A stretch of DNA of 64,000 nucleotides from Alphaproteobacteria bacterium (GTDB lineage Bacteria; Pseudomonadota; Alphaproteobacteria; Paracaedibacterales; CAIOTO01). Below, one piece after another: positions 62,499 to 63,370 of the stretch. Both the position numbers and the translations under genes were made by a program. The notes beneath the pieces were generated by a model. It was not told where the DNA came from. It saw only the letters and a program-made list of their open reading frames with translations, and did no database searches. Numbering within the stretch: the first letter of the stretch is position 1; every line of letters starts with the position of its first letter. The stretch covers positions 337 to 64,336 of the forward strand of contig CANKZX010000002.1 of assembly GCA_947488275.1 (NCBI GenBank). The letters are read 5' to 3'.

Positions 62499-63083
62499 AT
62501 GAAAAAACATGAAACCTTAAAATGTAATGACGTCGCTAATTATTTTTTAATTCTTGTGGATAGAGATGCAGGCGATTTGCTCACTCAGCTTAAATTACAG
62601 AAACTGCTTTATCTTGCTCAAGGTATAAGCCTTGCTATATATGACAAGCCTTTATTTAACGAGGAAATAGAAGCTTGGGAACATGGGCCAGTTGTGCGTG
62701 AACTAAGAAAGGTATATGGCGCTTTTGGAAGTGATCCATTGCCTTCGCCTGGAGAAATGGATTTCGATATATACACGCAGCAACAGAAAGAATTGATTTA
62801 TAAAATATACGCTCAGTATGGTGAATATACAGCATCATCTTTACGTAACTTGACACATGAACATTCAATTTGGAAAGAAGCATATAAAACTGATGAGCAA
62901 ATAATTATAAAAGATAAAATTAAATATTTTTTTAAAAAATTAAAACAAGAAGGAGAAATAAAAGATAATTTTTTATCGATATCAGCTAAAGATAAAGATG
63001 CCATAATAAACGCTGAGGACAAATGGTGGATGAATTACGATAGTGGAGTTCCTTCTGAGGATATATCGAAGGGTATTTTCTAA
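62499..63083 (+). CDS. Panacea-domain (DUF4065, SocA/PanA-like) putative antitoxin
   Basis: DVANYFL....D.....LTQLKLQKLLYLAQGISLAIYDKPLFNEEIEAWEHGPVVRELRKVYGAFG matches the DUF4065 core. Confidence 0.8.
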   Translation: MKKHETLKCNDVANYFLILVDRDAGDLLTQLKLQKLLYLAQGISLAIYDKPLFNEEIEAWEHGPVVRELRKVYGAFGSDPLPSPGEMDFDIYTQQQKELIYKIYAQYGEYTASSLRNLTHEHSIWKEAYKTDEQIIIKDKIKYFFKKLKQEGEIKDNFLSISAKDKDAIINAEDKWWMNYDSGVPSEDISKGIF

Positions 63084-63370
63084 TGAAACAAGATTCAATT
63101 TTTATTATCATACTCTCTGAGCAAGCTAAAAAAGACATAATCTTTTGGGAAAGAAAAAACTCTGTCATTAGTAGACAAATTCAAAAATTAATTGATAGTA
63201 TTCAACAGACACCTCGTTCGGGTAAGGGGCAGCCAGAAAAGCTAAGGTACGAATTATCTGGTGCTTGGTCAAGACGTATCGATAAAGAACATAGGTTGGT
63301 ATACGTGGTGAATGAACAAAACAAAACTGTTACTATTCAGAGTTGTAAAGGGCATTATGGGCAACATTAA
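63083..63370 (+). CDS. yoeB: YoeB/Txe-family mRNA-interferase toxin
   Basis: GKGQPEKLRYELSGAWSRRIDKEHRLVYVV...CKGHY versus E. coli YoeB [30 protein letters not shown]...CRYHY. Start overlaps the upstream stop (TAATG). Confidence 0.92.
   Translation: MKQDSIFIIILSEQAKKDIIFWERKNSVISRQIQKLIDSIQQTPRSGKGQPEKLRYELSGAWSRRIDKEHRLVYVVNEQNKTVTIQSCKGHYGQH

What the first reader, a model, noticed from the sequence alone, without database searches (positions are those of the whole stretch)
62499..63370. Non-canonical toxin-antitoxin pairing: Panacea (DUF4065) protein translationally coupled to a YoeB toxin
The 95-aa downstream ORF is an unmistakable YoeB/Txe RNase. It has GKGQPEKLRYELSGAWSRRIDKEHRLVYVV and a C-terminal KGHY, and retains the Glu, Arg and His-Tyr positions that are catalytic in E. 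coli YoeB as I recall them. YoeB normally follows a YefM/Phd antitoxin. Here the upstream gene (194 aa, stop/start overlap TAATG) instead has the DUF4065/Panacea core (LKLQKLLYLAQG...EAWEHGPVV). Panacea domains have been described as promiscuous antitoxin modules (PanA) that pair with many unrelated toxins. I cannot say from memory whether a YoeB partner has been validated. The C-terminal 70 aa of the Panacea protein (K/D/E-rich, ending WWMNYDSGVPSEDISKGIF) is the candidate toxin-specific neutralisation region. The pair sits in the cargo part of the tRNA-Ser island, so a role in stabilisation or phage defence is plausible.
Basis: partly seen in the sequence, partly recalled or inferred. Interest (0 to 1): 0.6.

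Follow-up and report, generated by a model that had tools for sequence, protein, structure and literature searches.

The report
Panacea antitoxin paired with YoeB toxin
Two overlapping genes on a small mobile island encode a YoeB-type RNA-cutting toxin and, in place of its usual YefM partner, a Panacea-domain antitoxin; the pair is real and conserved, but it was already catalogued (untested) in 2022-2023, so this is a new example of a known kind.

Summary
The 194-aa ORF at 62499-63083 is a Panacea/DUF4065 protein (PF13274, 3.2e-18). The 95-aa ORF at 63083-63370 is a Txe/YoeB toxin (PF06769 3.9e-26; TIGR02116 93.6 bits against a cut-off of 51.8). It keeps the four residues that are catalytic in E. 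coli YoeB. The genes overlap in TAATG. No YefM-like frame lies in or beside the pair.

The pairing is conserved. Ten further loci in unrelated neighbourhoods carry the same long PanA followed by an intact YoeB. One more has a yoeB pseudogene.

Every YoeB-linked PanA has a roughly 45-aa C-terminal extension with the motif AEDxWWMNYDSG. The nearest PanA relatives lack this extension. They pair instead with an unrelated protein of about 140 aa and never with YoeB (0 of about 145 loci).

AlphaFold2 predicts that most of the extension is folded onto the Panacea core, not disordered. No interface with YoeB could be tested.

The pairing is not new. Kurata et al. 2022 list it as toxin cluster T48 in three Rickettsia species, untested. 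Halter et al. 2023 noted it in Tisiphia and R. felis.

Verdict: a new member of a known, experimentally unvalidated PanAT type. Modest interest.

The parts
62499..63083 (+). panA: 194-aa Panacea-domain antitoxin candidate (long form)
   Evidence: ORF. PF13274 at 3.2e-18. Homologues of 56-81% identity in Rickettsia, Tisiphia, Orientia and metagenomes. AF2 model has mean pLDDT 92.4 and pTM 0.86.
62595..62876 (+). Panacea (DUF4065) core as matched by Pfam, residues 33-126
   Evidence: It contains the invariant A59, W60 and G63 and the nearly invariant H120 and W125 of the family alignment.
62949..63080 (+). C-terminal extension (about residues 151-194), absent from the nearest short-form PanA relatives
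   Evidence: Alignment A1. It is present in all YoeB-linked PanAs and absent in about 145 short-form loci that lack YoeB. AF2 predicts helix 163-179 at pLDDT 92-96 and tail 181-194 at pLDDT 59-67.
63012..63047 (+). Conserved motif AEDKWWMNYDSG (residues 172-183; W176, W177)
   Evidence: Conserved in the long-form alignments A1 and A5. Coordinates.
63081..63085 (+). TAATG stop/start overlap (1 shared base); AAGGG lies 9 nt before the ATG
   Evidence: Read directly. Translational coupling is inferred, not shown.
63083..63370 (+). yoeB: 95-aa Txe/YoeB-family toxin; E52, R71, H91, Y92 at the catalytic positions
62397..62498 (+). 102-bp gap upstream of panA: presumed promoter region, nothing recognisable
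   Evidence: The sigma-70 consensus scan finds no site here. Only two weak inverted repeats. There is no ORF of 30 aa or more on the + strand.
62118..62396 (+). 92-aa ORF of unknown function upstream; not part of the conserved module
   Evidence: No Pfam, NCBIfam, PADLOC or PHROG match. It is absent upstream of the pair in the related loci examined outside this island (L083, L085, L087, L088, L090).
57467..61933 (+). Island backbone: tRNA-Ser(CGA) 57467-57556, integrase 57712-58938, 207-aa ORF 58935-59558, AlpA 59638-59919, DUF7146/Toprim primase 59910-60944, AAA_25+HTH 60941-61933

Best explanation
This is a two-gene type II toxin-antitoxin module of the PanAT kind, and it corresponds to predicted cluster T48 of Kurata et al. 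2022. YoeB is a ribosome-dependent mRNA endonuclease that blocks translation when free. This is inferred from family membership and retained catalytic residues. The upstream PanA is made from the same transcript and is probably translationally coupled through TAATG. It binds YoeB directly and keeps it inactive; this too is inferred. The element specific to this PanA lineage is a roughly 45-aa C-terminal extension: a helix carrying AEDxWWMNYDSG that packs on the Panacea core, followed by a flexible acidic tail. I think it most likely supplies the YoeB-binding surface. The Panacea core would then act as scaffold or sensor, as Ernits et al. 2023 proposed for PanAs that have extra neutralising parts. 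The module is low-GC cargo of a P4/CP4-57-like integrative island at tRNA-Ser. There it would stabilise the island or act in phage defence; that role is not shown.
For: Family assignments are above the curated cut-offs. Catalytic E, R, H and Y are retained here and in all 10 PanA-linked YoeBs aligned. The YoeB of relative L087 models onto YoeB crystal structures at TM 0.9 and rmsd 1.5 A. A long-form PanA followed within -23 to +10 nt by an intact YoeB is seen in L001/L002, L003, L083, L085, L087, L088, L090, L129 and L130. These loci have quite different neighbours: rpoD, asd/coxC, phage-like genes, integrase islands. R. tamurae has a yoeB pseudogene at the same place. The extension tracks the partner. 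It is present in every YoeB-linked PanA. It is absent from the short-form relatives (65 genome loci and 80 viral loci), none of which has YoeB. Instead, 42 of the genome loci and 66 of the viral loci have a conserved protein of about 140 aa downstream. PanA-linked YoeBs cluster in the YoeB tree (0 of 500 label shuffles as clustered). They share F15, N20, P21, K81, G82 and a 2-residue hairpin insertion relative to YefM-linked ones. No YefM-like frame lies in this contig. GC is 32-35% at the module against 40-43% nearby. Published precedent exists for direct complex formation by PanAs and for neutralisation through a C-terminal add-on, Phd-C (PMC8832971, PMC10440598).
Against: Nothing here shows toxicity, neutralisation or binding, and T48 is marked 'notest' in Kurata's dataset. 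AF2 of a natural in-frame PanA-YoeB read-through from L087 gave pTM of only 0.63. The PanA extension was no more ordered than in PanA alone, and coordinates and PAE were not available, so no interface is supported. Long-form PanAs with an intact motif persist without any YoeB in several Rickettsia elements and in Orientia. Three small non-Panacea proteins bearing the motif are not next to a recognisable YoeB. The extension may therefore have a role other than, or beyond, binding YoeB. The PanA has no DNA-binding domain and no operator is evident, so autoregulation is unexplained.
Confidence: 0.78

Rival explanations
1. The Panacea core itself neutralises YoeB, as in the stand-alone PanAs studied by Ernits et al. 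The C-terminal extension would do something else, for example oligomerisation, a protease degron, or binding of a trigger or of another partner.
For: AF2 folds helix 163-179 onto the core with high confidence without YoeB. The motif is kept in orphan PanAs of Rickettsia and Orientia that lack YoeB. It also occurs in small proteins that are not next to YoeB. Ernits 2023 shows direct neutralisation by the core in single-domain PanAs.
Against: There is a strict association between the extension and the YoeB partner among about 160 PanA loci. The orphans may be recent losses in decaying genomes, and a yoeB pseudogene is seen in L005.
Confidence: 0.3
2. The pair works mainly as an abortive-infection or defence module. 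Panacea would sense a phage or element cue and release or activate YoeB, rather than acting as a plain addiction module.
For: It sits as cargo of an integrative island next to replication genes. Relatives lie in phage-like or island contexts (L083, L088). The sensor hypothesis for Panacea is in Ernits 2023. PHROG families match both proteins.
Against: There is no PADLOC match. Several relatives sit among housekeeping genes (L085, L087). The host is a small-genome, probably host-associated alphaproteobacterium for which no phage is known. No long-form PanA was among the 80 best IMG/VR loci.
Confidence: 0.25
3. YoeB is really held in check in trans by the canonical YefM encoded elsewhere in the genome (contig C9), and the PanA gene is only a neighbour.
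For: A YefM (84 aa, PF02604 1.4e-18) and YoeB-like (89 aa) pair exists on C9.
Against: The PanA-YoeB adjacency is conserved in at least 10 other loci and genomes. The two YoeBs are only 36% identical. The island is absent from the six other genomes sampled from the genus, so it travels as its own unit.
Confidence: 0.04
4. The module is an inactive remnant in a reduced genome.
For: Related Rickettsiaceae show yoeB loss or a stop codon (L004-L007, L005, L047, L089).
Against: Both frames are intact here and the catalytic residues are kept. An identical PanA followed by a 95-aa YoeB-family gene was assembled in two other samples. The PanA model is confident.
Confidence: 0.08

Closest known systems
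[quoted passage not shown] 2022, PNAS, PMC8832971, Dataset S1
   Same: Same gene order (antitoxin first), same two families, overlapping or closely spaced genes. The window PanA is 57% identical to a protein named as R. hoogstraalii DUF4065 (P0035).
   Different: The host is a different, uncultured alphaproteobacterial order, in which only 3 of 62 genomes carry the long PanA. The window YoeB is a divergent member, at most 56% identical to the others found here. T48 itself was never tested.
[quoted passage not shown] 2023 (Microb Genom, PMC9997750)
   Same: Same module. Those authors also state that there is no homology to YefM and that there are close homologues in Rickettsia and Orientia.
   Different: They did not identify the antitoxin as Panacea and gave no analysis of the C-terminal extension.
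PanA with C-terminal Phd-C helices neutralising a Doc toxin (Corynebacterium doosanense PanAT; Ernits et al. 2023, PMC10440598)
   Same: A Panacea core plus a C-terminal helical add-on paired with a classical toxin that normally has a Phd/YefM-type antitoxin. This is the 'linear neutralisation' concept.
   Different: There the add-on resembles the canonical antitoxin's toxin-binding part. Here the extension shows no detectable similarity to YefM (hhalign probability 0.45%), and neutralisation by it is untested.
Canonical YefM-YoeB / Axe-Txe (E. coli, PDB 2A6Q)
   Same: The toxin family, catalytic residues, size and antitoxin-first overlapping operon are the same.
   Different: The antitoxin has an unrelated fold and size (194 aa Panacea against about 83-92 aa Phd/YefM). 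It has no recognisable DNA-binding N-terminal domain. In a sample of 301 alphaproteobacterial genomes, about 25 of the 30 best YoeB loci have YefM upstream and only this one has PanA.

Membership tests
Txe/YoeB toxin family (PF06769 / TIGR02116) | Match to the family HMMs above the curated cut-offs | tested here: met
   PF06769 91.3 bits (cut-off 27); TIGR02116 93.6 bits (cut-off 51.8).
Txe/YoeB toxin family (PF06769 / TIGR02116) | Catalytic Glu46, Arg65, His83, Tyr84 (E. coli numbering; the residue list is from my knowledge of Kamada and Hanaoka 2005) | tested here: met
   E52, R71, H91 and Y92 align to them. Three extra residues (GQH) follow the C-terminal HY. Similar short tails occur in relatives.
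Txe/YoeB toxin family (PF06769 / TIGR02116) | RelE/YoeB microbial RNase fold | tested here: inconclusive
   Only the YoeB of relative L087 was modelled; it shares 44% identity with the window protein in alignment A2. It gives TM 0.88-0.92 to 2A6R, 2A6Q and 6N90. The window protein itself was not folded.
Txe/YoeB toxin family (PF06769 / TIGR02116) | Ribosome-dependent mRNA cleavage and growth arrest | not testable with these tools
   Needs expression and cleavage assays.
PanA (Panacea/DUF4065 antitoxins), PanAT systems | Panacea domain (PF13274) above the gathering score | tested here: met
   67.1 bits against 25.7, full-length profile match 1-113.
PanA (Panacea/DUF4065 antitoxins), PanAT systems | [quoted passage not shown] 2022) | tested here: met
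   Overlap of 1 nt here. The same pairing is in at least 10 other loci from different genomes.
PanA (Panacea/DUF4065 antitoxins), PanAT systems | Partner is toxic and is neutralised by PanA through complex formation | not testable with these tools
   T48 is 'notest' in the source dataset. The AF2 read-through model is uninformative on the interface.
SocA (type VI antitoxin, NF047745 equivalog) | Score above the equivalog cut-off | tested here: not met
   59.2 bits against a cut-off of 190. It shares the domain but is not SocA.
Canonical YefM-YoeB module | Phd/YefM-fold antitoxin (PF02604) encoded immediately upstream | tested here: not met
   No PF02604 match in this contig in six frames. The upstream gene is Panacea. 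The extension against a YefM profile gives hhalign probability 0.45%.

The most novel reading that the evidence does not exclude
The AEDxWWMNYDSG-bearing C-terminal extension is a previously undescribed YoeB-neutralising element, unrelated to the YefM C-terminus, grafted onto a Panacea core. That would add a fourth 'linear neutralisation' add-on to Phd-C, PAD1 and ZBD. The orphan long PanAs that are abundant in Rickettsia and Orientia mobile elements would then act as anti-addiction antitoxins against incoming YoeB modules.
Probability: 0.35. Interest if true: 0.45.

Novelty: new member of a known kind. Interest (0 to 1): 0.3.

Why it matters
YoeB is one of the best-studied toxins, and its neutralisation is understood only through YefM-type antitoxins. 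A validated Panacea-YoeB pair would give a second, structurally unrelated way of silencing the same enzyme. It would also provide a clean test of whether Panacea neutralises directly or only carries a neutralising add-on. The extension-partner association found here gives precise constructs for that test. As an annotation matter, it explains 'orphan' YoeB toxins reported in Rickettsiaceae and related symbionts. It does not open a new class of system.

Tried and rejected
1. Hidden YefM. The six-frame PF02604 search of the whole genome hit only contigs C9 and C3. The 92-aa upstream ORF has no match in four libraries and is not conserved next to the pair in relatives outside this island. Rejected.

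2. Homology of the extension to YefM. hhalign of the extension profile against a 25-sequence YefM profile gave probability 0.45%. The Pfam scan of the last 68 aa at E up to 10 found nothing. An eye-catching ISxxDxxAI..EE/Dx(W/Y)(W/L) resemblance has no statistical support.

3. Portability of the motif. An HMMER search of 1.84 billion representatives with the last 47 aa gave 13 hits. Most are PanA fragments. Three small non-Panacea proteins carry the motif, but none is next to a recognisable YoeB. Two long repeat proteins are chance WW-type repeat matches. No support for a portable YoeB-binding module.

4. Complex modelling. The tool does not take two chains. I used a natural in-frame PanA-stop-YoeB read-through from relative L087 (table 6, TAA=Q). 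The result was pTM 0.63, and no coordinates or PAE were returned, so it is uninformative about the interface. MAFFT misaligned the YoeB rows in two earlier alignments (A2, A3), which were discarded.

5. Fold search of the PanA model against the PDB found no match at E 0.001 or better.

6. Relation of the 140-aa partner of short PanAs to YoeB. hhalign probability was 0.3%, with no Pfam or PDB hit.

7. Island end. No attR copy of the tRNA 3' end was found in the rest of the contig.

8. Promoter and operator. Nothing convincing was found.

Full report
**Observation.** One is a 194-aa frame at 62499-63083 and the other a 95-aa frame at 63083-63370, both on the + strand. The sequence reads ...TTC TAA TG AAA..., so the stop of the first gene and the ATG of the second share one base. 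The first protein matches Pfam SocA_Panacea (PF13274) over the whole profile at 3.2e-18. It is well below the NCBIfam SocA equivalog cut-off (59 against 190 bits), so it shares the domain but is not SocA. The second matches PF06769 at 3.9e-26 and TIGR02116 at 93.6 bits against a cut-off of 51.8. Against E. coli YoeB (2A6Q_E, 1.1e-18), window residues E52, R71, H91 and Y92 stand opposite E46, R65, H83 and Y84. Three extra residues (GQH) follow the C-terminal His-Tyr. Short tails of this kind also occur in relatives.

**Is a YefM hiding?** No. A six-frame search of the whole 1.47-Mb assembly with PF02604 finds two places, both on other contigs. The 102-bp gap before panA has no + strand ORF of 30 aa or more. 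The 92-aa ORF upstream (62118-62396) has no match in Pfam, NCBIfam, PADLOC or PHROGs. In the related loci examined outside this island, the gene upstream of the pair is different each time.

One of the two PF02604 hits belongs to a canonical YefM (84 aa) and YoeB-like (89 aa) pair on contig C9. Its toxin is only 36% identical to the island YoeB.

**Is the pairing conserved?** Yes. PanA homologues fall into two forms:
- The long form is 186-230 aa and 49-81% identical. It is named in Rickettsia, Tisiphia and Orientia and occurs in unnamed metagenome contigs.
- The short form is 143-160 aa and 43-50% identical over the core. It occurs in cyanobacteria, Acidobacteriota and other phyla.

The long form is followed by an intact YoeB gene, spaced -23 to +10 nt, in these loci:
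- L001/L002 (Tisiphia) and L003 (a Rickettsia endosymbiont)
- L083 (an integrase/primase element)
- L085 (after rpoD)
- L087 (between asd and coxC)
- L088 (phage-like)
- L090
- L129 and L130, two genomes of the window's own order

Rickettsia tamurae (L005) has a yoeB with an internal stop at the same place. Several Rickettsia loci carry the long PanA with no yoeB left. These are L004, L006, L007 and L047, three of which lie between an integrase and conjugation-type genes; Orientia (L089) is the same.

**The extension tracks the partner.** All long forms end with an extension of about 45 aa carrying AEDxWWMNYDSG. In the window this is residues 172-183, nt 63012-63047. The short forms stop just before it.
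- None of the 65 short-form genome loci has a YoeB hit, and among the 80 viral loci there is only one weak RelE-like hit, in L203.
- 42 genome loci and 66 viral loci instead have a conserved downstream protein of about 140 aa.
- That 140-aa protein has no Pfam or PDB match and no profile similarity to YoeB.
- No viral locus contains the motif.

**What the structure predictions say.**
- The window PanA alone, with a 70-sequence alignment, gives mean pLDDT 92.4 and pTM 0.86. Helices 138-150 and 163-179, the latter holding AEDKWWM, score pLDDT 92-97. Only residues 181-194 are uncertain, at 59-67. Most of the extension is therefore predicted to be part of the folded protein, not a disordered arm.
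- No solved structure resembles the model.
- Two chains cannot be submitted. I therefore used the fact that in relatives L087 and L085 the two genes are in the same frame, separated only by TAA, and folded the L087 read-through.
- In that model the YoeB half superposes on YoeB crystal structures at TM about 0.9. The whole chain reaches only pTM 0.63, and the junction and PanA tail stay at low confidence.
- Coordinates and PAE are not returned. This gives no evidence for or against an interface.

**Other tests of the 'neutralising extension' idea.**
- Profile comparison with YefM shows no relationship.
- A full HMMER pass over 1.84 billion representative proteins with the last 47 residues found only 13 hits. 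Most are PanA fragments.
- Three small non-Panacea proteins carry the motif. None is next to a recognisable YoeB.
- Orphan PanAs keep the motif without YoeB.

So the extension may do more than, or something other than, bind YoeB. I put the extension-as-neutraliser sub-claim at roughly even odds.

**The toxin side.** In a sample of 301 alphaproteobacterial genomes, 35 have a YoeB. Of the 30 best loci, about 25 have YefM upstream. One has a RelB/DinJ-like gene, one an RHH-like gene, one no recognised antitoxin gene, and only the window has PanA.

The nearest YoeBs that are not PanA-linked (53% identity, Bacteroidota-type) follow a DUF2683 gene. YoeB therefore swaps partners more widely than the textbook pair suggests.

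In a maximum-likelihood tree the PanA-linked YoeBs sit together at one side (0 of 500 label shuffles as clustered). They are not resolved as one supported clade. The window and L090 lie between the main PanA-linked group and the rest. PanA-linked YoeBs share F15, N20, P21, K81, G82 and a two-residue hairpin insertion relative to YefM-linked ones.

**Setting.** The pair is the last recognisable cargo of an element that runs as follows:
- tRNA-Ser(CGA)
- a P4-type integrase
- a 207-aa unknown ORF
- AlpA
- a DUF7146/Toprim primase
- an AAA_25+HTH protein
- a 92-aa unknown ORF
- panA-yoeB

GC falls to 32-35% at the module, from 40-43% nearby. The long PanA is absent from the six other genomes sampled from the genus. 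It is present in only 3 of 62 genomes of the order. An identical PanA with a 95-aa YoeB-family gene after it was assembled in two other samples. No attR was found in the remaining 3 kb of the contig.

**Comparison with what is known.**
- Kurata et al. 2022 (PMC8832971) named Panacea. They showed that nine PanA-toxin pairs work, with direct complex formation where pull-downs were done. [quoted passage not shown] The gene order is A|T and the entries are marked 'notest'.
- Halter et al. 2023 (PMC9997750) independently wrote that Tisiphia and R. felis YoeB genes have an upstream putative antitoxin. They noted homologues in Rickettsia and Orientia and no homology to YefM.
- Ernits et al. 2023 (PMC10440598) showed that multidomain PanAs neutralise through add-ons (Phd-C, PAD1, ZBD). 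They proposed that the Panacea core is a sensor. YoeB is not discussed in their main text.

The window therefore holds a new member of a catalogued but unvalidated PanAT type, in a lineage outside Rickettsiaceae.

**Verdict.** My best explanation is a functional PanA-YoeB type II module carried as island cargo (confidence 0.78). The extension-partner association and the predicted fold of the extension are useful leads for an experiment, not discoveries of a new kind. Interest 0.3.

Noticed in passing
own genome, contig C9 (L092:1181-1435 and 1429-1698): A canonical YefM (84 aa, PF02604 1.4e-18) and YoeB-like (89 aa, PF06769 37 bits) pair co-exists in the same 1.47-Mb genome. Its toxin is 36% identical to the island YoeB. 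A further weak Phd/YefM hit lies on C3:59817-59996 and was not examined.
   Followed up: partly
L009-L079 (genome contigs) and L137-L216 (IMG/VR): The short-form PanA relatives are almost always followed by a conserved protein of about 140 aa. Its motif is HGLGxEKI...FRFxGxxPMVGYRDxxxFHIxWxDRxFxLYDH. It has no Pfam or PDB match. Earlier notes of this scan call a similar partner 'T1, RelE-fold'. My hhalign against YoeB gave no support (probability 0.3%).
   Followed up: partly
L006, L007, L047 (Rickettsia), L089 (Orientia): Orphan long-form PanA genes with an intact AEDxWWMNYDSG motif sit between an integrase and conjugation-type genes (TraF in Orientia). No yoeB is present. The Orientia cluster has 119 member sequences. 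They could be anti-addiction antitoxins or decay products.
   Followed up: partly
L124, L125 (metagenome contigs): Bacteroidota-type YoeB toxins (P0122, P0123) are preceded by a 65-69-aa DUF2683 (PF10884) gene instead of YefM. This is another non-canonical YoeB partner.
   Followed up: no
L134:2498-2860; P0143 (L135:2501-2701); P0144: Small proteins (66-120 aa) without a Panacea domain end in the same EDxWWMNYDSGxPxED motif. One sits in a phage-like contig near a T4-type RNA ligase. One is followed by an unannotated 121-aa gene for which no DNA was available. Their function is unknown.
   Followed up: partly
window 63502-64000, continuing to 64347 in window numbering, beyond the window end (L126:6339-7184): A 281-aa ORF directly after yoeB has a hydrophobic N-terminus and no match in Pfam or PHROGs. 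A 450-aa Sel1-repeat protein follows on the minus strand (L126:7410-8762). It is unclear whether either belongs to the island.
   Followed up: partly
window 62000-64000: GC drops to 32-35% from 40-43% in the preceding 10 kb. This is consistent with foreign cargo at the island's end.
   Followed up: no
L085:5589-5594 and L087:2676-2681: In two relatives panA and yoeB are in the same reading frame, separated only by a TAA stop. Stop-codon read-through would produce a PanA-YoeB fusion. This is probably a coincidence of spacing.
   Followed up: no
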